From: an uncultured virus (IMG/VR IMGVR_UViG_3300049489_000201)
Lineage: Duplodnaviria; Heunggongvirae; Uroviricota; Caudoviricetes
Direction: 5' to 3' (one strand)
Virus record (IMG/VR): IMGVR_UViG_3300049489_000201
DNA: 55,090 nt
A model generated the notes under the pieces. It worked only from the letters and a program-made list of their open reading frames with translations, did not search any database and was not told the DNA's origin. Positions 3,122 through 46,080 of the stretch are shown here, piece after piece. A program made the translations under genes and the position numbers. Every line of letters starts with the position of its first letter. Position 1 is the first letter of the stretch.

Positions 3122-4110
3122 CACTTTTATATATAGACGGCTTTGAGACTCAGGACTCTGAAAGATACAACGCTGGGTATGTACTTGGGTATTCTAGCAG
3201 TGGAACCAGGTTTGGCTACGGCTACTGTGTAGATATAAGCCGTCCAATATTGCAATATAACCTTGGTTCCGCCGAGTCAACAATTATCACCGGCCATGCC
3301 ATAAAAACAAACTCCTATGAGTGGGCTAACATATTTTACAGCGACGGTGGATCGCTGACTGCCGCCAGAATTAACTTGTCTGCAACTGGATCAATTACTG
3401 TCTATAGGGGCGGTGGTACGTTAGTTGGTTCTACCGCCGCCGGAATCTTTCCAACAACAGCATGGTTTTACCTTGAAACAAAAGTCGTAGTTCACGACAC
3501 AACTGGCTCTATCGAGGTAAGGGTAGACGGAGTGCAAGTTTATCTTGCAACGAACATCGACACAAGGCCCGGCACTGGAACCGGAATCGATTCAATCCAG
3601 TATTACTACTGGACAACTGGTAGTAATCGCCAAGTTGACGACCTATATATATGTAATGGTAGTGGGTCAGTAAACAACGACTTCCTCGGAGATGTGCGCG
3701 TCGCCACACTTACCCCCAACGGGAACGGTGCGTCTAGCCAATTGGTCGGATCTGATGGTAACAGCACAGACAACTACCTACTTGTTGATGAATCGCCACC
3801 GAATGCTTCGGATTATGTCGGAGGTACAACGTCTGGAGATAAAGACTCGTATCTTATGACTGACCTACCAGCGGGCGTAAGTAGCGTTCTTGGTATTCAG
3901 CAGGTTGCTAGGCTGACAAAGACTGACGCTGGCGCGAAGAGTGCCAAGCACCTTATTCGCATGGCAGCGACAAACTACACCTCTGCCTCATTTGTATTGG
4001 GTGCCGCGTGGACCACCCATACTTATGTCAGAGAGACTAATCCAAATACAGGCGTGGCATGGACTATTGCCAATGTGGATGCCCATGAAGCAGGAATAGA
4101 AATTGCATGA
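3118..4110 (+). CDS. Virion structural/tail-associated protein
   Basis: 330 aa beta-rich ORF coupled (ATGA overlap) to the tail genes. Confidence 0.65.
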   Translation: MTLLYIDGFETQDSERYNAGYVLGYSSSGTRFGYGYCVDISRPILQYNLGSAESTIITGHAIKTNSYEWANIFYSDGGSLTAARINLSATGSITVYRGGGTLVGSTAAGIFPTTAWFYLETKVVVHDTTGSIEVRVDGVQVYLATNIDTRPGTGTGIDSIQYYYWTTGSNRQVDDLYICNGSGSVNNDFLGDVRVATLTPNGNGASSQLVGSDGNSTDNYLLVDESPPNASDYVGGTTSGDKDSYLMTDLPAGVSSVLGIQQVARLTKTDAGAKSAKHLIRMAATNYTSASFVLGAAWTTHTYVRETNPNTGVAWTIANVDAHEAGIEIA

Positions 4111-6498: not shown

Positions 6499-7314
6499 AT
6501 GACTAACGACCTCAAATGGTTGATATCTTCTGATCAGCAGATACCATACCATGACAAGCGTGCGCTAGACCTGTATTTCCAGGTGATGAAAGCGTGGCGT
6601 CCCGACGTTATAGATCTCGTCGGTGACCAATCTGATCAGTTTTGTTTTTCTAGGTGGAGCGAGGGGCGACCACAGGAGTTCCTTGAGAAGTATAAGCGCG
6701 GAGAGATAGATGATATCTTGACCGGAAGCAAGGTCGAAGAACGTCCGGTTGCAGAGTTCTACGCTCAGCACCGCAAGATGCGGAAGAACGCGGAAATATT
6801 TGTTGCCCTTGGCAATCACGATGTTCGTGCTTTCGACTACTTTGAAAAGAAAATCCCAAGCATGATGAATGATGTTACTCCAGAATCGCTCTGGGGGCTT
6901 GATAGTCTAGGCATCGATTACATATATTACAGCGACCGTCCGAAGCATCGATATGGTGGCATCCATGCCCACCATGGAATGTCCATTAGCAAGCATGCTG
7001 GTGAGTCCGTGAGAAACGACATAGACAATTTTGGTATCTCTATGGTTCGCGGCCATAGTCACCGGCTAGCCTCATATGCAAAGTCGTATCCGCTGCGAAA
7101 CGAGATTGTTCGTGGGTGGGAACTAGGCCACATGATGGACATTAACTGTGGTGGTGCTAGTTACGATAACGTTCACAACTGGCAGCAGGGCTTCGCTATC
7201 GGACACATTGAGTCAGGTGCCGATACGCCAGATGGTTACTACGTTCACATTCAGTTGGTTGAGATAAGTCCAGACTACGTTTGTTATGTCGATGGCAAGA
7301 AATTCCAAGCCTGA
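6499..7314 (+). CDS. Calcineurin-like metallophosphoesterase
   Basis: SD.Q, GD..D, GNHD, HG and GHSH motifs. Confidence 0.85.
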   Translation: MTNDLKWLISSDQQIPYHDKRALDLYFQVMKAWRPDVIDLVGDQSDQFCFSRWSEGRPQEFLEKYKRGEIDDILTGSKVEERPVAEFYAQHRKMRKNAEIFVALGNHDVRAFDYFEKKIPSMMNDVTPESLWGLDSLGIDYIYYSDRPKHRYGGIHAHHGMSISKHAGESVRNDIDNFGISMVRGHSHRLASYAKSYPLRNEIVRGWELGHMMDINCGGASYDNVHNWQQGFAIGHIESGADTPDGYYVHIQLVEISPDYVCYVDGKKFQA

Positions 7315-12939: not shown

Positions 12940-15900
12940 ATGGATTTCGTACACCTACACAATCACAGCCACTACTCCCTGCTTGATGGGCTAAACACAC
13001 CTACTGAGTTGGTCGAGGCAGCGCGCGACTTTGGGCAACCTGGAATTAGTCTAACTGACCACGGTGGTCAGGCTGGATGGAGAGAACTACAGCGTGCCGC
13101 GAAGGCGGCGGGGATCAAGCCGATCCTAGGGCTAGAAGCATATTTCTCCACCACAGACAGATTCGACAAGCGCAGTAAGGCCAAGCGCTCTGACGGCGAT
13201 GCTGTATACAACCACCTTATTCTACTTGCCAAGAATCAGACAGGCACCAGGAATATCAGTCGTATGTCTGAGGAAGCCTGGAAGACAGGGTTCTACCAAA
13301 AGCCACGAGTGGATTCCGAACTACTGGAAACATACCGCGAGGGCGTAATCGTGCTGTCCGGATGCCTTAGCGGACCAATCACTAAGGCTATCGTCAACGG
13401 TGATATGGAAAAGGCCGAATACTGGGTTAAGTGGTTCAAGGAAACCTACGAGGAAGACTTCTACATCGAGGTTCAGGCACACAACCCTCCCGAGGTAAAC
13501 GGCAAACTACTTGAGTTTGCTGACATGTATAGCATCGAGCCTGTTGCTACGTCAGACTGCCATTACGCTAAAAAGGAAGACGGGTGGGTCGAGGAGGCCC
13601 TACTGATTCTTTCCAGCAAGCCAAAGCAGGCAGACGAAATGTCATGGAAGAACACCAACCAGATCAAAGATATCTATGAGCGCTTCAACGCTCTGTATCC
13701 TGATAGACGAATGTCGTTCCAAGACTTCAACCTATACGTGCAGTCTCGTAACGAACTAGAACAAGACTTTGCCAAGCAGTGTGACCGTACGGATATCTTT
13801 GACAACACCATTGCCATTCTAGACAAGGTTGGCGAATACGAATACAAGGAGAATCTAAATGTCCTACCGAAGCCGAAGGCTGACCCGCTCACTGAGTTGC
13901 GCCGCCTATGCATGGACGGTCTGGTCCGTCTCGGAGTCTCGAAAGACGAGCGCTACCTCAAGCGCCTGGAAATCGAACTGGCAATCATCGAGAAGAAGAA
14001 TTTTGCACCGTACTTCCTGATCGTCGCTGACCTCGTACAAGAGGCTAAGCGACGTGGCATTCTCGTTGGTCCTGGCCGTGGATCTGCTGCTGGATCGCTT
14101 GTGGTTTACAGTCTTGATATCACCACCATCGACCCGATTAAGCGCGGACTGCTGTTCGCTCGTTTCATCAACGAAGAGCGTAACGACATGCCTGACATCG
14201 ACGTTGACATTCAGGGTAGTCGCCGTAATGAAATGAAGGACTACATGGTTGGCAAGTTTAAGAATGTAGCCTCTGTTTCAACGTATACATATTTCGCGGA
14301 AAAGGGTGTCATTAAGGACGCCGCTCGTGTGTTCGGAATTGATCTTTCCGAGGTCAACAAGGCTACCAAGTCTATCGTGACCTTTGAGCAATTCATGGAC
14401 AGCCCGAATACAAAGGCGTTCCGTGATAAGTACCCTGAGGTTCTAGACCTGGCACAGCGCCTTCGTGGCCGTATCCGTGGGTCTGGAATGCACGCGGGTG
14501 GCCTGGTCGTGGCGAATAAGCCACTAAACCAGTTTGCTCCTATTGAGACACGTAGTTCAACTGACGATGACAGCAAAGAGCGTATCCCTGTGGTTGCGGC
14601 GAACAAAAAGGAAATCGCTAATATCGGTCTGATCAAGATCGACGCCCTGGGTCTAAATACTCTGGACGTTGTGGCAGATGCCGTGCGTCTAATCAAGGAA
14701 CGACACGGTATTGAGATTGATCCACTGACAATCAGCGTAGACGATCCTAAGGTCCACGCAATGATTGCTGCTGGATACACTAAGGGTGTTTTTCAGGCTG
14801 AGGCAGGACCGTCTACAAAACTGCTGATGGACATGGGTTGCGACAACTTCGGCGACCTAGTTGCGTCTAACGCGCTCGTTCGCCCTGGTGCTATGAATAC
14901 CGTTGGTGCCTCGTATGTCGCGCGTAAGCAGGGGCGAGAGCAAGTTAAGACACCGCACCCAATCCTAGATGAAATCACCAAGGAAACATATGGCGTTATC
15001 ATCTACCAGGAGCAGGTCATGCTCGCGTGTACCGAACTGGGTGGATTCTCCTGGTCTGAGGCTGATGAGATCCGCAGCATTATCGGTAAAAAGGAAGACC
15101 CGCACAAGTTCGATGCATTCAAGCAGCGCTGGCTAGATGGTGCGTCAAAGAATATTACTGTCGAGCAGGCAGAAGAACTATGGCACGATTTTGAGGCCCA
15201 CGCTGGCTACTCGTTCAACAAGTCGCACGCTGAGGCTTACTCGACAGTATCCATGTGGACTGCCTGGTTGAAGTATTACTACCCTCGTGAATACATGACT
15301 GCGCTACTTCGCAACGAGCCAGACAAGACGAAGGTGACGGGATATCTGATCGAGGCCAAGCGCCTTGGCATTACTGTCAGGCTGCCGCACATCAACTATT
15401 CTGGGCTGAACTTCGAACTAGAGGGTGACGCTATCAGAATGGGGCTGGGCAACATCAAGTTTGCTTCGGCTAAGACCGCGCCGCCTGTTATTCGTCACCG
15501 TCCGTACAAGTCGTACAAGGAATTCTATGACATTGCTTCGGCGGAAGGATCAGGAATCAACAGCCGTCTCGTGGGTGCATTCAACGCCATTGGTGCGGCG
15601 ACATTCGATGACAACCCATTGACTGGTAACGAAATCGATAACTTCTACGAGTACCTGTCGATTCCTAAGTTCAACACGTCAAATATTCCTCCGCAGATCA
15701 TCGCTATGATCCGCGAGGCGCACGACTACGAAGACGAAGGAACGTTCGTCGTCCTTGCTATGGTAACTGCCATTAAAAAGGGCAAGGGCTGGACGCTTAT
15801 CAACCTTGTGGATCAGTCTGGCGAGGCATCTGTATTCGCTGGTGGTAACTCTACTATTGAGAAGGGAGTTATGTATCTGATGCTCGTGTCAGAAAACAGG

Positions 15901-18986: not shown

Positions 18987-19763
18987 ATGACATTGCAGCG
19001 ACACGCTAGCCTAACTAAGCAGGTTGAAACCGATGGTTTCGATGCCTACAAGTTCGGCCTATTGATTGAAGAAACAATGGTCGGAGAACAAGGACCAAAG
19101 TTCAAGACCAAAAAAAGTTTCAGCCCATCGTCCCTTGGCTACGGCCATGGGACGTGCCCGCGCTACTGGCACCTCGCCTTTTCCGGCGCGATGTTTGATG
19201 ACACGGCAGACGCCATTGGCGTGTCGAATATGGGGAACGGGACATTTGTCCACGAGCGGCTACAGAAAGTTCTATCAGAAGCCCTTGGTGAGAACGTAGA
19301 AATTGAGCGTGAAATCAACTATACGAATCCTCCCATCAGGGGCTTTGTCGATGCCATCGTAGAATTCGATGGGGTCAAGGCGGTTGGTGAGATCAAGTCA
19401 GCCAAGCAGGAAATCTTCGACGGCCTGGCCTCATCCCGAAAGCCGATTGCCTATCACCTAGTTCAACTATTGCTTTACTGCCGTGTCTTGGGGATCAAGA
19501 ACGGTTTCTTTTATTACGAGAACAAGAATACTCAGCAATTCGTAATCATTCCAGTAGAAGTAAATGATGCACTAGAAAAGTACACGGATGATATCTTTGA
19601 ATGGATGCGCCTCGTGGACACCACATTCAAGGACGGCAAACTAGCCCATCCAATTAGCGCCAAAAGAAAGGCAGTGGCTTGCCGTTATTGCCCGCTCGTT
19701 GATGAATGCATCAAGCGACCGGACGGCGATATTCAAATAGACACCTTGACGGTATTGCCATAA
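18987..19763 (+). CDS. Cas4-like/PD-(D/E)XK exonuclease
   Basis: CPR, G..VH, G.VD, EIKS, QL..Y and C..C.....C (Fe-S ligands). Confidence 0.85.
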   Translation: MTLQRHASLTKQVETDGFDAYKFGLLIEETMVGEQGPKFKTKKSFSPSSLGYGHGTCPRYWHLAFSGAMFDDTADAIGVSNMGNGTFVHERLQKVLSEALGENVEIEREINYTNPPIRGFVDAIVEFDGVKAVGEIKSAKQEIFDGLASSRKPIAYHLVQLLLYCRVLGIKNGFFYYENKNTQQFVIIPVEVNDALEKYTDDIFEWMRLVDTTFKDGKLAHPISAKRKAVACRYCPLVDECIKRPDGDIQIDTLTVLP

Positions 19764-27790: not shown

Positions 27791-27869
27791 GGGATGAAAG
27801 GCAAACTGGTAGAGCCGCCAGTCTTATAAACTGGGAATACGATTGTGGGTTCAAGTCCCACTCATCCTA
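27791..27869 (+). tRNA. tRNA-Ile(TAT)
   Basis: GGGATGA/TCATCCT acceptor; CCAGT-CTTATAA-ACTGG anticodon arm; 10-nt variable region. Confidence 0.8.
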
Positions 27870-28007
27870 CGGTAGTCCACCTCACCTTCGGGTGCCCAAA
27901 GACAGGCTAGTTAGCCATAAGAGTAAAAACGCAAAGGGCGGGGTTGTCCACAGCGTTTTCTGTCAGGTGTGGACGAGATAGTAAACGTAAACCCCGCCTA
28001 AGCGCGT

Positions 28008-30053: not shown

Positions 30054-31479
30054 CCCTACGACCCTTATCGACGGATACAAGACCGATCACCGTCGACAGT
30101 ACCCCGACAAGACGGAGTACGTATATAGCAATTGGACCCCACGCGGATCGCGCGTGCCAGGAGTAGAGCGAGTCACGCTGTTCGGATTGCAGTATTTCCT
30201 CGACCGCTACCTCATGGACGAATTCTACGAGTTCTTCTCGGGCGACGTTGATATTGCCTGTAAGCGCTACGAGCGTCGCATGAATGGCTACCTTGGCCCT
30301 AACAACATTGGCACCGACCATATCCGTGCGCTGCACGAACTTGGTTACCTACCGCTGGAAATCTGTGCTATTCCTGAGGGTAGCGATGTTCCCCTGCGTG
30401 TGCCTATGCTGACCATTACAAACACGCACCCCGATTTCGGGTGGCTAGTCAACTACATGGAAACTCTGCTGTCCGCACAGTTGTGGCTTCCTTGTACCAG
30501 TGCAACAACCGCTAAGCATTTTCGCAAGCGTTTGGATTACTGGGCTCGTCGTACGGGAACCGACCAGGCGTTTGTTGATTGGCAGGGTCACGACTTCTCG
30601 TTCCGTGGAATGTCTGGCGTCGAGGCTGCTGCGCTTTCTGGCGCTGGTCACCTAATTTCGTTCACAGGAACAGATACAATTCCTGCGCTCGATCTGATTG
30701 AAGATTACTACGCATCATCCGACTTTATCGGTGGATCTGTCGCAGCAACCGAGCACTCGGTTATGTGCGCGGGCGGATCAGAGTCCGAGGGTGAAACATT
30801 CGACCGACTAATGGATCTATACCCAAGTGGTATTCTGTCAGTTGTTTCGGACACCTGGGATTTCTGGGGCGTTCTTACAGATATTCTGCCTGCGCGCAAG
30901 GACAAGATTCTTGCTCGTGACGGCAAACTGGTCATTCGACCTGACTCGGGCGACCCTGTTAAGATCGTTGCTGGTGACCCTGACGCCGTTCCTGGTACGC
31001 CAGAATACTACGGCGCGGTGGAAATGCTGTGGAAGACCTTCGGCGGAACCACAACGGACGCTGGATACAAGTTGCTAGACAGCCACATCGGAGTTATTTA
31101 TGGAGATAGCATTACTTACGAGCGCGGCGATCAGATCCTCGCAGAACTCGCGCGAAAGGGCTTTGCTTCTGGTAACGTTGTATTTGGTATCGGTAGTTAC
31201 ACTTACCAGTACGTCACCCGTGACACCTACGGATTTGCCATGAAGGCTACGTGGGTTCAGATCAACGGCGAAGGTATGGCTATTTTCAAGGATCCGAAGA
31301 CTGATAATGGCCTCAAAAAGTCCGCAAAGGGACGCTTGGCTGTCATCAACGACGAAGTTATTGATGAGGCTACGCCTGAGCAAGAGGCGGTGTCGCAGTT
31401 GCAGCCCGTGTGGCGTAATGGCGAGTTCGTCAACCGTCCGCTGGGCTTTGACGAGGTTCGCAGAAACGCTAGACAGTGA
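30046..31479 (+). CDS. Nicotinamide phosphoribosyltransferase-like protein (NadV/Namat-like)
   Basis: DGYK..H..QYP, HDF.FRG, ATEHSVM, SVVSDTWD, IRPDSGDP, KKSAKG. Confidence 0.95.
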   Translation: MFNPTTLIDGYKTDHRRQYPDKTEYVYSNWTPRGSRVPGVERVTLFGLQYFLDRYLMDEFYEFFSGDVDIACKRYERRMNGYLGPNNIGTDHIRALHELGYLPLEICAIPEGSDVPLRVPMLTITNTHPDFGWLVNYMETLLSAQLWLPCTSATTAKHFRKRLDYWARRTGTDQAFVDWQGHDFSFRGMSGVEAAALSGAGHLISFTGTDTIPALDLIEDYYASSDFIGGSVAATEHSVMCAGGSESEGETFDRLMDLYPSGILSVVSDTWDFWGVLTDILPARKDKILARDGKLVIRPDSGDPVKIVAGDPDAVPGTPEYYGAVEMLWKTFGGTTTDAGYKLLDSHIGVIYGDSITYERGDQILAELARKGFASGNVVFGIGSYTYQYVTRDTYGFAMKATWVQINGEGMAIFKDPKTDNGLKKSAKGRLAVINDEVIDEATPEQEAVSQLQPVWRNGEFVNRPLGFDEVRRNARQ

Positions 31480-31521
31480 CCTTCTGGTCTGCTATACTGT
31501 CCTAGACACATAGGAGGCGAC

Positions 31522-31692
31522 ATGAACGAGGAGCAGGCGCAGATCGCGCTGGCCATCTGTCAGTCCGAGCCATTCGCGTGGCTTATGGCGGGGTCCAACC
31601 ATGTAGACATGCAGTTGGCCGCTCTGCGCCCCGCGTGGGAGCAGTATGTCGAGGCTGGTGGCGGCTACTTCAACCGCTCCAAGCGACAGTAA
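31522..31692 (+). CDS. Small hypothetical protein, 56 aa (absent from ORF track)
   Basis: AGGAGG RBS; promoter TAGACA-N17-TATACT at 31470-31498; followed by a hairpin at 31697-31732. Confidence 0.7.
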   Translation: MNEEQAQIALAICQSEPFAWLMAGSNHVDMQLAALRPAWEQYVEAGGGYFNRSKRQ

Positions 31693-31735: not shown

Positions 31736-31803
31736 ACCCCGTCTATAGGACGAGACTTGGGACTTCTAATCCCAAAGGAACGGTTCGATTCCGTTACGGG
31801 GTA
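31736..31803 (+). tRNA. tRNA-Arg(TCT), D-arm-less
   Basis: ACCCCGT/ACGGGGT acceptor; TGGGA-CTTCTAA-TCCCA; perfect T-arm; 15-nt D region. Confidence 0.75.
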
Positions 31804-31805
31804 CT

Positions 31806-31926
31806 GGGTACGCCGAGGCTGTTAGTTGCAACTAGCATCGGGTGATTTTACAGATAAGTGCGCGAGGCTAGCGCAAACTGTCTGCATTTGAGCGGTCAAT
31901 CTATGCCAGACGACCTTTACCCGCCA
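31806..31926 (+). ncRNA. Unknown multi-hairpin RNA ending GCCA
   Basis: GGGTA/TACCC closes three hairpins. Confidence 0.5.
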
Positions 31927-31993
31927 GCCGCCAATAAGGATATAGCCCGTCCCTCCGAAGGATGAGTTCAGAGTTCGATTCTCTGTGGTGGCA
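31927..31993 (+). tRNA. tRNA-Arg(CCG), D-arm-less
   Basis: GCCGCCA/TGGTGGC; CGTCC-CTCCGAA-GGATG; T-arm CAGAG-TTCGATT-CTCTG; 14-nt D region. Confidence 0.75.
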
Positions 31994-32089
31994 CAATGAA
32001 GATATACTAAAACTCCGTAAAATGCGATGCCCAGGACGCCGGGTTGGATATTAGTATAAATTCAGGGGCGGGTTGCAAACCGTCCACAT

Positions 32090-32155
32090 GCCGCGTGTAA
32101 GGAACGAAGCAGGTTTCCTAAACCAGCCTATCGGGTTCGATTCCCGAACGTGGCA
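32090..32155 (+). tRNA. tRNA-Arg(CCT), D-arm-less
   Basis: GCCGCGT/ACGTGGC; loop TTCCTAA; T-arm TCGGG-TTCGATT-CCCGA; 13-nt D region. Confidence 0.72.
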
Positions 32156-33698: not shown

Positions 33699-33772
33699 GG
33701 CCCTGTACCAGAATTGGCATATGGACTCGACTCAAAATCGAGGGTTTGTGGGTTCGACTCCCACCTGGGCTA
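33699..33772 (+). tRNA. tRNA-Leu(CAA), short variable arm
   Basis: CTCGA-CTCAAAA-TCGAG. Confidence 0.85.
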
Positions 33773-33773
33773 C

Positions 33774-33869: not shown

Positions 33870-33942
33870 GGCCTCTTATCCCAGCGGCAGAGGAAAGCGG
33901 CTTAAACCCGCTCAAGCATCGGTTCGAATCCGATAGGGGCTA
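33870..33942 (+). tRNA. tRNA-Leu(TAA), short variable arm
   Basis: AGCGG-CTTAAAC-CCGCT. Confidence 0.88.
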
Positions 33943-33960
33943 CTTAACAAAGGATTATAT

Positions 33961-34174: not shown

Positions 34175-34921
34175 ATGACTTACCCTGAGTTCCAACTTCT
34201 AGAGGCCCCCGCAGATGCCTCGCCGGAACAGATCAAGGATATCGTCGCTGCCAATACAGCGATCCTTGACTACCGACAGAAGATCGATGACTTAGAAATT
34301 GACGTGCTAGAGCGTCAAAAGACCAAGATCGATCTAGAGGTAGCAGAAATCGAACTGGCTAAGAAAAAGCACTGGGCCAGCAGAGACGTAGACGCATACC
34401 GCTACCGTAGCGGCGTCTTCACGCTTTATGACTACGTAGATGATTACTCGTGCAAGCAGGTCATCAACGACATTACCGTGTGGCACAGCATTACGCCTAA
34501 GGGCACGCCACTGCAACTAAACATCAATTCATACGGTGGCTCTGTTACTGATGGTTTCGCGCTATTCGATACGCTACGTTACGTCGCGGAAGATGGTGAC
34601 CGTAAGGTCAAGACTGTCAACCTCGGTGTTGCTGCTTCGATGGGTGGAATTCTGTTGCAGGCTGGTGACGAGCGTGTCGTTACCCCGTCCAGCATTCTGA
34701 TGATCCACGAGGTTTCGTACGGTGTTGGTGGCTCCGCTGCCCGTCACCGTGACACAATGGACATGTCCGACATTCTGGCCGCTCGCATAATCGAGGTATT
34801 TTCAGAGCGTTCGAACCTGACGCCAGATGAATTCAAAGACAAGTGGGATCGCCGCGACTGGTGGCTGTCCGCTGCTGATGCACTTAAGTTCGGCTTCGCT
34901 GACCGCGTAGCCTTCTCGTGA
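34175..34921 (+). CDS. clpP: ClpP-like protease with N-terminal coiled-coil extension
   Basis: INSYGGSV.DG.A.FD, G.AASMG, LMIHE, RDWWLSA.DAL.FG.AD. Confidence 0.92.
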   Translation: MTYPEFQLLEAPADASPEQIKDIVAANTAILDYRQKIDDLEIDVLERQKTKIDLEVAEIELAKKKHWASRDVDAYRYRSGVFTLYDYVDDYSCKQVINDITVWHSITPKGTPLQLNINSYGGSVTDGFALFDTLRYVAEDGDRKVKTVNLGVAASMGGILLQAGDERVVTPSSILMIHEVSYGVGGSAARHRDTMDMSDILAARIIEVFSERSNLTPDEFKDKWDRRDWWLSAADALKFGFADRVAFS

Positions 34922-35328: not shown

Positions 35329-35666
35329 GGGGACGCAAGGTATCGATCTTGTGTTTGAGGTATAAAGTGGCAGTCGGTTCGGTTGACCTAATCAACCAAC
35401 AAAATAATAAATGCAAACGAAGATGCAGTCGTAGCCGAGGCTATGGCTAATATCGACGCTGAGTACGAGGCGCTTTGCGCCAAGTACGCACTGGCAACAG
35501 TATAAGCGTCCGAGCGGCAACTGCTTAGGAACAGAAAGTTGCAAACCGCCTGAGAGGGCACCCTGTAATGCCAGCACTAAAGTAATACCGGGGGCGGATA
35601 CCCATGACTGTATCTACAGAATATCGATTAACAAGACACGCGGGTTCGACTCCCGCCGTCTCCACC
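35329..35666 (+). ncRNA. ssrA: tmRNA
   Basis: GGGGACG/CGTCTCC-A acceptor with G3-U70; T-arm; resume codon after ATAAAT; tag ORF 35413-35505. Confidence 0.93.
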
Positions 35667-38562: not shown

Positions 38563-38964
38563 ATGAAGGAATGCTCGGCGTGCCACAATAATTTCTCGAC
38601 GGAGCAGTTTGCCGCGAGATCATCTATGTGCAAGCCATGTCATAATTCATACACAAGAGATCACTACCAAAAGAACAAGCAATACTATAAGAATAAGGCC
38701 AGGGCGCGCGAAGCACAGTCGAGAGCCCTAATTTCAGAATACAAAGCATCTACACCCTGTGCAGACTGCGGACTTTCGTACCCCGCCGTGTGTATGGATT
38801 TTGATCACCTGAGCGACGACAAGTTATTCAACATTGCTAGTCGCGCGAAGAGTGGATTTTCTAAAAGTGTAGTTGCTGAAATGCAGAAGTGTGAGTTGGT
38901 TTGTGCTAACTGCCATCGACTGCGAACACAAATGCGGGTATCGCCTAACGGATATGGCACTTGA
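38563..38964 (+). CDS. HNH homing endonuclease-like protein
   Basis: PCADCG.....MDFDH, KCELVCANCHR; paralog of 37904. Confidence 0.88.
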   Translation: MKECSACHNNFSTEQFAARSSMCKPCHNSYTRDHYQKNKQYYKNKARAREAQSRALISEYKASTPCADCGLSYPAVCMDFDHLSDDKLFNIASRAKSGFSKSVVAEMQKCELVCANCHRLRTQMRVSPNGYGT

Positions 38965-39010
38965 CTACGAATCAAGCACAATGTAGGTTCGAATCCTACT
39001 ACTCGTACCA
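38934..39010 (+). tRNA. tRNA-Arg(ACG)
   Basis: CTTGA-CTACGAA-TCAAG; encoded CCA. Confidence 0.9.
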
Positions 39011-41092: not shown

Positions 41093-41167
41093 GTGCTTGT
41101 AGCCCAACTTGGCAGAGGTGCTCGGCTTAGACCCGAGAGGTTGTGGGTTCGAATCCCACCTGGCACA
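41093..41167 (+). tRNA. tRNA-Leu(TAG), short variable arm
   Basis: CTCGG-CTTAGAC-CCGAG. Confidence 0.87.
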
Positions 41168-41177
41168 CGTTATATAT

Positions 41178-41259
41178 GCTCCCGTGGTGAAACTGGTATA
41201 CACGTTAGACTTAGGATCTAATGACGCAAGTCGTGTCGGTTCGAATCCGACCGGGAGTA
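41178..41259 (+). tRNA. tRNA-Leu(TAG), long variable arm
   Basis: TTAGA-CTTAGGA-TCTAA. Confidence 0.92.
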
Positions 41260-41271
41260 CGTGAAAGACAA

Positions 41272-45329: not shown

Positions 45330-46080
45330 TAGCATTAAAACAGGCATGGCTGATATGCATACGTGAGTATGCGAAAGGTGTGTGACAATCACCGCCCATT
45401 GGGTAATCCATGCAATCCGAGACTACAACGAGTTCAGCAACAATGGACCGGGGTGGCGTAAGTTCGGTGGGCAACGGAAAGTTCTGAGCCCTCCCCTCCA
45501 CGCAGGAGGATAGCCGATCAAAACGAGCGCTATTGGTAGGAAGGAAGGAACAGAAGTCCGAGGCGTCAACCAAGGGCGGGTTCCATGAAGCAGCAAAAGT
45601 GGTGTGGCGACATCATAAGTAGCAGCAGAGATTGAGAGTACCTGACAAGGAAATCATATCGAGGTAGTGGAGCATTCTGTGGGACAAAATCTCACGGACC
45701 TTCTAGGGAAGCGCTTCCTCCGTCTTACACGTATTGATTAATGGTAAATCAATTGGCATTTAACCAATGAATACAGGTTCGAATCCTGTTACAAAGCAAA
45801 AGACTTCCCTTGTTCGTGTTCGAAAGCGCCTTAATGCTTGGCCCTCCGGGGAACCAAGCGCGATCCTAGCCGCAAGCGAAGATTGTTCCATCGCCAGTAA
45901 TGCAGTCAAGAGGCTTGCTACCTCTGGGCGAAGTAAAAACGGTGGAGTGGAATGCGAATATAAAGAGTGGTAGGCTATACCGACCAGGCGTGACAGTTAC
46001 CATGGGGACATGGTGGAAACGACGGGAAACAATAATCCGTCAAGAGACTGTCAAGAGCGGGAGTATTCTCATCCCAATCA
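45330..46080 (+). ncRNA. GOLLD-like large non-coding RNA (boundaries approximate)
   Basis: About 750 nt purine-rich with no credible ORF, inside a tRNA array; 3' motifs AAGCAAAAG, CGAAAG..CTTAAT, GTGGA...AATAATCC..CAA and GTATTCTCA resemble GOLLD as recalled. Confidence 0.75.

What the first reader, a model, noticed from the sequence alone, without database searches (positions are those of the whole stretch)
31736..32155. Three clustered D-arm-less tRNA-Arg genes with a tmRNA-like loop
Seen: Arg(TCT), Arg(CCG) and Arg(CCT) have intact acceptor and T arms and recognisable anticodon arms. Only 15, 14 and 13 nt without a D-stem replace the usual roughly 19-nt D region (CTATAGGACGAGACT, ATAAGGATATAGCC, GTAAGGAACGAAG). 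All keep AGGA. Their stems differ in sequence yet pair, which argues for selection rather than decay, and Arg(ACG) elsewhere is canonical. Established: G18-G19-A20 covers the elbow contact and the ArgRS identity base; tmRNA also lacks a D-stem (here CAAGGTATCGA). Inference: a distinct class of minimal phage tRNAs that are functional, nuclease-evading or decoys, possibly stabilised by SmpB or a phage factor.
Basis: partly seen in the sequence, partly recalled or inferred. Interest (0 to 1): 0.85.

Follow-up and report, generated by a model that had tools for sequence, protein, structure and literature searches.

The report
Compact-D-arm arginine tRNAs in a phage
Three arginine tRNA genes of an uncultured phage have one arm shrunk to a tiny hairpin joined directly to the amino-acid-carrying stem, a conserved tRNA shape found in many other phages and bacterial tRNA clusters that gene finders often miss and that probably still works in protein synthesis.

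Summary
The three genes are real: Arg-UCU 31736-31803, Arg-CCG 31927-31993, Arg-CCU 32090-32155, with D regions of 15, 14 and 13 nt. They are not D-stem-less or tmRNA-like. Comparison with relatives shows a compact cloverleaf: no U8-N9 linker, a D hairpin starting right after the acceptor stem (usually 4 bp; only 2-3 bp here) capped by N-G18-G19-A20, a 2-3-nt linker, and usually a sixth anticodon-stem pair (26-44). I found 85 distinct arginine and 25 other tRNAs with such short D regions in phages (including cultured roseophages, mostly unannotated) and bacterial tRNA arrays; the stems covary. The closest phage relative keeps the short form, and in near-complete phages 9 of 10 compact Arg genes are the only gene found for their anticodon. 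Best reading: functional Arg tRNAs charged by host ArgRS (about 0.7; no RNA data). Evasion of tRNA-cutting defences is the likeliest reason but untested. Closest known shapes: Methanomethylophilus alvus tRNA-Pyl and mitochondrial tRNA-Ser(UCN). Nine paper searches found no description. The scan noted this family before on other DNA (e1-6016265).

The parts
31736..31803 (+). compact tRNA-Arg(UCU), 68 nt: acceptor 31736-42/31796-802; D region 31743-57 (C-G, T-A pairs at 31743-44/31753-54, then A.G and T.C, loop AGGA 31747-50); 26-44 pair T-A; anticodon 31765-67; T arm 31779-95; A73 31803
   Evidence: aligns in register with 14 relatives of the 15-nt type; no substitution listed inside it in a close relative, against 5 substitutions and 1 gap in the same record
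31927..31993 (+). compact tRNA-Arg(CCG), 67 nt: D hairpin ATA/TAT (31934-36/31941-43) with AGGA loop; 26-44 is C.A but the linker can pair with the variable loop; anticodon 31955-57 with A37
   Evidence: 48.1 bits with model R1, which was built without it; identical copy with other flanks in run X6
32090..32155 (+). compact tRNA-Arg(CCU), 66 nt: D hairpin GT/AC (32097-98/32104-05) with AAGGA loop, 26-44 G-C, anticodon 32117-19, one A.A mismatch in the anticodon stem
   Evidence: 52.4 bits with model R1, built without it; identical in run X3; same GT/AC type in L014 and L017
31697..31732 (+). 11-bp hairpin just upstream of the first tRNA (leader or processing element; role unknown)
   Evidence: -20.2 kcal/mol, z -4.8, 0 of 200 shuffles as stable
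31994..32089 (+). structured spacer between the CCG and CCU genes; dispensable (replaced by 4 nt in one relative)
   Evidence: z -2.6; joint in run X3
31470..31498 (+). sigma-70-like promoter candidate upstream of a 56-aa ORF (31522-31692) and the tRNA cluster
   Evidence: 10 of 12 matches, but 1 found against 0.6 expected, so not above chance; ORF has no PHROG or Pfam match
38934..39007 (+). canonical tRNA-Arg(ACG), the fourth Arg gene of the window (comparator)
35329..35666 (+). tmRNA (comparator; its 11-nt D loop has no first-position hairpin)

Best explanation
They are working tRNA-Arg genes of a compact architecture. Shown by sequence comparison: the acceptor stem runs straight into a short D hairpin whose loop presents G18-G19 and A20; a 2-3-nt linker follows; the anticodon stem usually gains a 26-44 pair; the variable loop is 3-4 nt; U8 and usually the pyrimidine at 48 are gone. 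Inferred: the form arises from a canonical tRNA-Arg by loss of about four nucleotides (8-11), the remaining 12-15 pairing with 20a-23 as in a Sec-type D hairpin; G18/G19 still dock on the T loop, so an L-like shape is kept, as in tRNA-Pyl and mt-tRNA-Ser(UCN); the RNAs are cut from the phage tRNA transcript, get CCA from the host, are arginylated by host ArgRS through A20, C35, U/G36 and A73, and read AGA, AGG and CGG. Why the shape is selected is inference: most likely it keeps Arg decoding alive when the host destroys or modifies canonical tRNA-Arg during infection (about 0.45 given function), otherwise a tolerated compact alternative that spreads between arrays.
For: Covariation in 15 aligned sequences: 95.5% of cells paired, 20 of 22 pairs with both-side changes, 0 of 500 shuffles as high; D helix 86.7% paired, 3 of 4 pairs compensatory; pair 26-44 has 5 types (related sequences can beat such shuffles, and some rows came from a pattern that fixed the stem). 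Unbiased subset: 27 of 31 Arg sequences not matching any stem-fixing pattern have >=2 bp at the first position, 94 bp in sum against 41+-6 in 10,000 shuffles (max 63); 16 of 19 found only as neighbours or by BLAST do, 18 of 19 keep GGA. Whole set: 26-44 paired in 76 of 85 against 172 of 657 canonical; first nt U in 5 of 85 against 581 of 657. Position 20 follows the amino acid: Arg loops are mostly NGGA, while 6 of 8 short Trp and 2 of 2 Tyr have an NGG loop with no base 20 and 2 of 3 Ala have G20, matching bacterial identity elements A20 (Arg) and G20 (Ala) (PMC9976931, passages). Slot replacement: in four viral genomes 94-100% complete all 8 compact Arg genes are the only gene found for their anticodon; in phage MD18 1 of 2. 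3' ends follow the genome's habit: encoded CCA in 35 of 85, C74 without CCA in the window like most of its tRNAs. The closest phage (G003; terminase 55%, HNH 71%, Clp protease 54%) has compact CCU and CCG genes in the same gene order. AGA, AGG and CGG are 205 of 674 Arg codons in 46 window ORFs. An engineered D-armless tRNA is accepted by E. coli HisRS, EF-Tu and ribosome (PMC11551756, two sections read).
Against: No expression, charging or structure data. The window's own hairpins are weak (2-3 bp), not predicted by folding; the CCG gene has C.A at 26-44 and the CCU gene an A.A in its anticodon stem. Compact Arg tRNAs carry more stem mismatches than canonical Arg (acceptor 0.14 against 0.01, anticodon stem 0.17 against 0.07 per tRNA). 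Pairs 25-45 and 24-46 show no Watson-Crick covariation (23 of 64, shuffle 21; 12 of 64, shuffle 23), so how the core is closed is unexplained. In bacterial genomes the compact genes are extra copies beside canonical ones (4 of 4 published genomes for CCG; canonical TCT or CCT in G007, G008, G009, G011), so they are not shown to be essential. Two compact TCT genes lack A20 (L335, L422). G2-C71, listed as an Arg element, is C2-G71 in all three. The window is only part of the phage genome, so canonical copies elsewhere cannot be excluded.
Confidence: 0.7

Rival explanations
1. Non-translating decoys: folded tRNA-Arg mimics that soak up an anticodon nuclease, a tRNA-modifying toxin or ArgRS, without entering the ribosome.
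For: All sequence conservation seen would also fit a mimic; extra copies beside canonical genes in bacteria and beside canonical Arg(ACG) in MD18; loss of U8 and often of Y48.
Against: They take the place of the canonical gene for their anticodon in 9 of 10 phage cases; anticodon loop, discriminator, T arm, G53-C61 (63 of 64) and amino-acid-specific position 20 are all kept, more than a bait would need.
Confidence: 0.13
2. Weakly active or condition-specific tRNAs, or processing signals (RNase P/Z substrates that punctuate the phage transcript), with translation a minor role.
For: Structured spacers and an upstream hairpin; weak D hairpins in this window; acceptor/T half is the best kept part.
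Against: Anticodons are restricted to sense codons with intact loops and match position 20; a punctuation signal would not need them.
Confidence: 0.09
3. Decaying pseudogenes of canonical tRNA-Arg.
For: Higher mismatch rate than canonical Arg tRNAs; low Rfam scores; 2-bp stems in the window.
Against: Same deletion register and compensatory D-stem changes in 85 distinct sequences across unrelated phages and arrays; genes unchanged while flanks change in close relatives (for the UCU gene 0 of 68 against 6 of 82 positions, Fisher p 0.03, one low-depth record).
Confidence: 0.05
4. tmRNA-like D-loop RNAs that need SmpB or a dedicated phage protein.
For: Similar length (11-15 nt) and a GG in the loop as in the window's tmRNA.
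Against: D region is a hairpin, unlike tmRNA; anticodon arm intact; no SmpB in 5 carrier phage records nor among 62 window proteins scanned; carriers range from actinophages to roseophages and Myxococcota arrays. Host SmpB binding was not tested and a small unknown phage factor is not excluded.
Confidence: 0.03

Closest known systems
tRNA-Pyl of Methanomethylophilus alvus (review PMC7609411, section 8 read whole)
   Same: No nucleotide between acceptor and D stem, 4-nt D loop, 6-bp anticodon stem, 3-nt variable loop, 7/5 acceptor branch, used by ordinary translation machinery.
   Different: Pyl tRNAs have a CUA anticodon, G73 and their own synthetase; those of M. barkeri and D. hafniense lack G18-G19 and TPsiC. 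Here the anticodons are sense Arg codons, GG-A20 and TTCRA are kept, a 2-3-nt linker sits between D stem and anticodon stem, and no synthetase is encoded.
Mammalian mitochondrial tRNA-Ser(UCN), type I mt-tRNA (PMC7609411, section 9 part 1 read)
   Same: Small D loop with G18-G19, TPsiC kept, 6-bp anticodon stem, 3-nt variable loop, L-shaped.
   Different: One-nucleotide connector, mitochondrial machinery; here zero connector, bacterial or phage setting, Arg identity.
tRNA-Sec and allo-tRNA D arms (PMC5389517 abstract and passages; PMC7609411 passages)
   Same: D stem closed by a tetraloop.
   Different: Sec/allo-tRNAs have a long (6-bp) D stem, long variable arm and 8/5, 8/4 or 9/3 acceptor branches; these are 7/5 with a 3-4-nt variable loop.
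D-armless tRNAs: mt-tRNA-Ser(AGY) and engineered E. coli mini HisT (PMC11551756)
   Same: Shortened region between acceptor and anticodon stems.
   Different: Those have only 4-5 connecting nt and no GG; here 13-16 nt with a hairpin and GG-A20.
tmRNA tRNA-like domain (Rfam RF00023)
   Same: Short D region with GG, no U8.
   Different: No D stem, no anticodon loop, G3.U70 alanine identity, SmpB partner (recalled); none applies.
Phage and tRNA-array tRNAs as anti-defence supplements (PMC10264068 abstract; PMC12803027 passages)
   Same: Redundant tRNA sets in mobile arrays, with differences from host copies; proposed insensitivity to host tRNA nucleases.
   Different: Those papers discuss anticodon-loop changes or unspecified D-arm differences, not a connector-less D hairpin (0 hits for D-arm, D-loop or Arg in PMC10264068).

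Membership tests
canonical bacterial tRNA-Arg (type I cloverleaf) | 7-bp acceptor stem, 5-bp T stem, TPsiC loop, 7-nt anticodon loop | tested here: met
canonical bacterial tRNA-Arg (type I cloverleaf) | U8-N9 connector and 3-4-bp D stem at 10-13/22-25 with single nt 26 | tested here: not met
   first nt C, A, G; stem starts at the first nt; no pairs in the 10-25 register
canonical bacterial tRNA-Arg (type I cloverleaf) | R15-Y48 Levitt pair | tested here: not met
   last variable nt G, T, A in the three; pyrimidine in 38 of 85 compact against 502 of 657 canonical
canonical bacterial tRNA-Arg (type I cloverleaf) | ArgRS identity bases A20, C35, U/G36, A/G73 | tested here: met
   sequence against PMC9976931 Table 1; C3-G70 met, G2-C71 not met
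canonical bacterial tRNA-Arg (type I cloverleaf) | arginylation and use in translation | not testable with these tools
   no RNA holder listed
D-armless tRNA (mt-Ser(AGY) type) | no D stem, short unpaired connector, no G18-G19 | tested here: not met
   hairpin with covariation and GG kept
tmRNA tRNA-like domain | stemless D loop, no anticodon loop, G3.U70, tag reading frame | tested here: not met
   intact anticodon loops, C3-G70, no RF00023 match at the locus
tmRNA tRNA-like domain | SmpB binding | not testable with these tools
   only absence of SmpB genes in 5 phage records tested
tRNA-Pyl | 0-1-nt connector, small D loop, 6-bp anticodon stem, 3-nt variable loop | tested here: met
   (26-44 pair in 2 of the 3 window genes, 76 of 85 overall)
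tRNA-Pyl | CUA anticodon and G73 | tested here: not met
   anticodons TCT, CCG, CCT; A73
allo-tRNA / tRNA-Sec | 8/4, 9/3 or 8/5 acceptor branch and long variable arm | tested here: not met
   7/5 branch, variable loop 4 nt; RF01852 20.8 bits against 47

The most novel reading that the evidence does not exclude
A widespread natural family of elongator tRNAs for the ordinary bacterial ribosome with a rebuilt core (no U8, no 8-9 connector, no Levitt pair, tetraloop D hairpin, 6-bp anticodon stem), which phages and tRNA arrays swap in for canonical isoacceptors, above all Arg, because host tRNA-targeting defences recognise the canonical D-arm/core; one of at least two alternative wirings (the other moves the D loop behind the anticodon arm) that fill the same Arg slots in sister phages.
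Probability: 0.35. Interest if true: 0.85.

Novelty: new variant of a known kind. Interest (0 to 1): 0.7.

Why it matters
[quoted passage not shown] These are not arm-less, but they would be natural tRNAs on bacterial ribosomes without the U8-A14 and 15-48 core, charged by a standard synthetase, a shape so far known from tRNA-Pyl and mitochondria. They are missed or mis-folded by ARAGORN and Rfam, so phage tRNA sets are undercounted (4 of 5 cultured roseophage records checked leave the compact Arg(CCG) unannotated). They make the open question of why phages carry tRNAs directly testable: cultured phages carry compact and canonical Arg tRNAs side by side, so shape-based escape from tRNA nucleases can be assayed. 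They are also new scaffolds for tRNA engineering.

Tried and rejected
No whole genome is held for the window, so copies outside it could not be sought. BLAST of the cluster found no homolog in 50,697 phage records beyond short tRNA matches. Cultured Streptomyces BE/BK phages Gilson and Daubenski, Rhodococcus NiceHouse, Gordonia GMA2, Salmonella 7-11, Caulobacter Cr30 and Aeromonas phiA8-29 have canonical Arg genes at the places checked, no compact ones; 0 of 7 loci fetched through the neighbouring NAMPT gene hold one. One pattern scan was mis-spaced and found 0. No full-length match in plasmids or further cultured phages. Alternative fold of the UCU gene with a 5-bp acceptor and 4-bp D stem (cmscan, MFE) rejected because acceptor pairs 6 and 7 covary and are 100% paired in relatives. 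An extension of the anticodon helix by 25-45 and 24-46 pairs was tested and not supported. Sole-copy status in bacterial genomes was tested and not found, apart from one small MAG (G010) with only a compact TCT match. Sequencing runs: no RNA holder listed. No family tree was built, so single or repeated origin is open. Literature: nine full-text searches (open-access PMC and bioRxiv only) gave no description of this form; subscription papers and supplements (for example those of PMC5389517, not opened) could hold one.

Full report
Setting. The window is part of a large phage with an actinobacterial host (inferred): DnaE is 50% identical to Streptomyces BE/BK phages, NAMPT 58-59% to Rhodococcus phages, and it encodes WhiB, terminase, helicase and tail genes. 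It carries 28 ARAGORN genes including a tmRNA and a GOLLD RNA. The best sequencing-run holder is a freshwater sediment metagenome, possibly the source.

Observation. My own scanner (T arm, 7-bp acceptor, anticodon arm, free D length) parses three genes at 31736-31803 (UCU), 31927-31993 (CCG) and 32090-32155 (CCU) with perfect acceptor and T stems and D regions of 15, 14 and 13 nt; the other window tRNAs have 17-21 nt. Twenty shuffled windows gave 0 such parses. ARAGORN mis-folds all three and Rfam scores them 37.2, 29.3 and below cut-off. So the short D regions are real.

What the D region is. The distance from GGA to the anticodon stem is canonical (mostly 7 nt); what is missing lies 5' of GG (5 nt instead of 9-11). 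Pattern scans of IMG/VR, JGI metagenomes and GTDB, and BLAST of cultured phages (yields under Tried and rejected) gave, among 904 unique parses from 435 sources, 110 with D regions of 13-16 nt and short variable loops: 85 Arg (CCT 22, CCG 21, TCT 20, ACG 15, TCG 7) and 25 others (Trp 9, CAT 4, Ala 3, Thr 3, Cys 2, Tyr 2, two doubtful). The Arg excess is partly built into my patterns. In them the first base after the acceptor stem pairs: CCTA/TAGG, CTTA/TAAG, CCCG/TGGG, GGT/GCC, ACAT/ATGT, CCAG/CTGG and, in the window, CT/AG, ATA/TAT, GT/AC. 77 of 85 Arg have >=2 bp and 68 >=3 bp. Because three patterns fixed stem-side letters, I repeated the test on the 31 Arg sequences (of 64 then held) that match none of them: 27 have >=2 bp, 94 bp in sum against 41+-6 (max 63) in 10,000 shuffles; on 19 that match no pattern at all, 16 do (7 of the 19 are related roseophage genes). 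On a 15-row alignment the D helix is 86.7% paired with both-side changes in 3 of 4 pairs, and slid registers fall to 34-48%. The window's three alone reach >=2 bp together in 0.85% of shuffles, but they are the weak end of the family and energy folding does not show their hairpins. Two further traits separate the class from canonical tRNAs: 26-44 is paired in 76 of 85 against 172 of 657, and the first base is U in 5 of 85 against 581 of 657; position 48 is a pyrimidine in 38 of 85 against 502 of 657. A model built from the 15-nt type scores the window's CCU and CCG genes, which were not in it, at 52.4 and 48.1 bits, above all its canonical tRNAs (<=40.9), though a few canonical Arg genes elsewhere reach 50-56.

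Origin (inference). Removing positions 8-11 from a canonical tRNA-Arg leaves almost exactly the compact D region: the canonical TCT gene of Gordonia phage GMA2 and the compact TCT gene of L012 differ there by those four bases, one change that lets 14 pair with 21, and one linker base. From recall, U8 lies next to C13 in the L-shape (s4U8-C13 photo-crosslink), so a direct link from 7 to 12 is sterically plausible. How 24, 25 and the variable loop close the core is not resolved: no Watson-Crick covariation there.

Selection, not decay. The closest phage fragment (G003) is syntenic (Ile-TAT, Thr-GGT, Arg cluster, a homolog of ORF 32672, Clp protease) and has compact CCU and CCG genes; its CCU gene shares acceptor and T arm with the window's CCG gene and most of the anticodon arm with the window's CCU gene. 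Low-depth contigs of three independent samples show the genes unchanged where covered while flanks differ: no listed change in the UCU gene against 5 substitutions and a gap in the same record, the CCU gene identical with the 95-nt spacer replaced by 4 nt (4 unlisted differences lie in the CCG part of that record), the CCG gene identical with other flanks. In G001, G002, G004 and G017 (94-100% complete) all 8 compact Arg genes are the only gene found for their anticodon; in MD18 the CCG is alone and the compact ACG sits beside a canonical one (the pattern cannot see genes with long variable regions). Position 20 tracks the amino acid (PMC9976931 passages). In bacterial genomes the class occurs in tRNA arrays, mostly of Myxococcota MAGs, always as far as tested beside canonical housekeeping copies; whether these arrays are chromosomal or binned phage DNA was not settled. 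All 19 compact CCG genes have A37 where 4 of 6 canonical ones have G37 (partly pattern-imposed).

Mechanism. Most likely (0.7) they are processed from the phage transcript, completed with CCA by the host, charged by host ArgRS and used for AGA, AGG and CGG, which make up 30% of the window's Arg codons. No helper is evident: no SmpB or ArgRS in 5 carrier records. Precedent for tolerance: M. alvus tRNA-Pyl and mt-tRNA-Ser(UCN) (PMC7609411, sections 8 and 9 part 1) and an engineered D-armless tRNA in E. coli (PMC11551756). The reason for the shape is untested; escape from tRNA-targeting defence extends the hypothesis of PMC10264068 (abstract) from anticodon loops to the core. That sister phages fill the same Arg slots with a second odd wiring (D loop behind the anticodon arm) suggests repeated pressure on tRNA-Arg shape, but this is inference.

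Novelty. It works like a tRNA-Arg and looks like tRNA-Pyl/mt-Ser(UCN) in its core, but belongs to none of the tested families by their defining features. Nine searches of open-access full text found no description. After I had reached this reading, the scan's notes showed the same family from a T4-like freshwater phage (e1-6016265), an unchecked AI note and not independent support. No claim here rests on the unpublished genome G006 except the one-locus share of the yield.

Noticed in passing
L008:2326-2403, 7139-7214, 15626-15699; L017:1654-1729; L019:2084-2161; L031:9933-10006 (Gilson); L032:6076-6152, 19162-19236 (Daubenski); L299:5539-5615, 13678-13753: A second odd wiring: only 7 nt between acceptor and anticodon stems and an 18-22-nt region after the anticodon arm that carries a D-loop-like AA..GG motif and pairs with the 5' linker. 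Seen for Arg (TCT, ACG, CCG, TCG) and Ile(GAT), also in cultured Streptomyces BE/BK phages, where most BLAST hits are unannotated.
   Followed up: partly
L303:4571-4637, L305:15323-15389, L312:1154-1220, L321:3490-3557, L325:4061-4128 and 2563-2630, L335:2420-2487, L340:1661-1804, L351:1074-1142, L435:530-891: Compact forms of Trp, Tyr, Ala and Thr tRNAs with the same connector-less hairpin; Trp and Tyr use an NGG triloop.
   Followed up: partly
L029:1483-1552 (MD18), L307:2408-2477 and 4001-4070 (RcXuper), L308:601-670 (DSS3P8), L310:605-674 (RpAliso), L311:601-670 (MAL1): Cultured roseophages carry compact Arg(CCG), some also Arg(ACG); only the MAL1 record annotates the CCG gene. Best material for experiments.
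   Followed up: yes
window 33699-33773, 33870-33943, 41093-41168: Three tRNA-Leu genes (CAA, TAA, TAG) with short variable loops; a second TAG gene (41178-41260) has the long arm.
   Followed up: no
window 27791-27870: tRNA with anticodon TAT and a 10-nt variable arm; the same type in L017:2404-2481.
   Followed up: no
window 45660-46075: GOLLD RNA, 218 bits, with an internal tRNA-like match at 45731-45792.
   Followed up: no
window 35329-35666: Phage tmRNA with a long (30 aa) tag peptide ending in ALATV, next to a Clp protease gene (34175-34921).
   Followed up: no
window 31820-31840 and 32066-32086: Two short hairpins in the spacers share a GTTGCAA core; the second resembles an isolated anticodon arm with TGC. 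Both tRNA 1 and tRNA 2 are preceded by CTTTACCC-like text.
   Followed up: partly
L001:5890-5940 (NiceHouse): Unannotated mini tRNA-like element (7-bp acceptor-like stem and T arm with a 19-nt insert, no clear D or anticodon arm) just upstream of the canonical Arg(CCT) gene (read by eye).
   Followed up: no
L021:989-1056: Compact tRNA with anticodon CAT but an Arg-type TGGA loop, possibly an anticodon switch from CCT.
   Followed up: no
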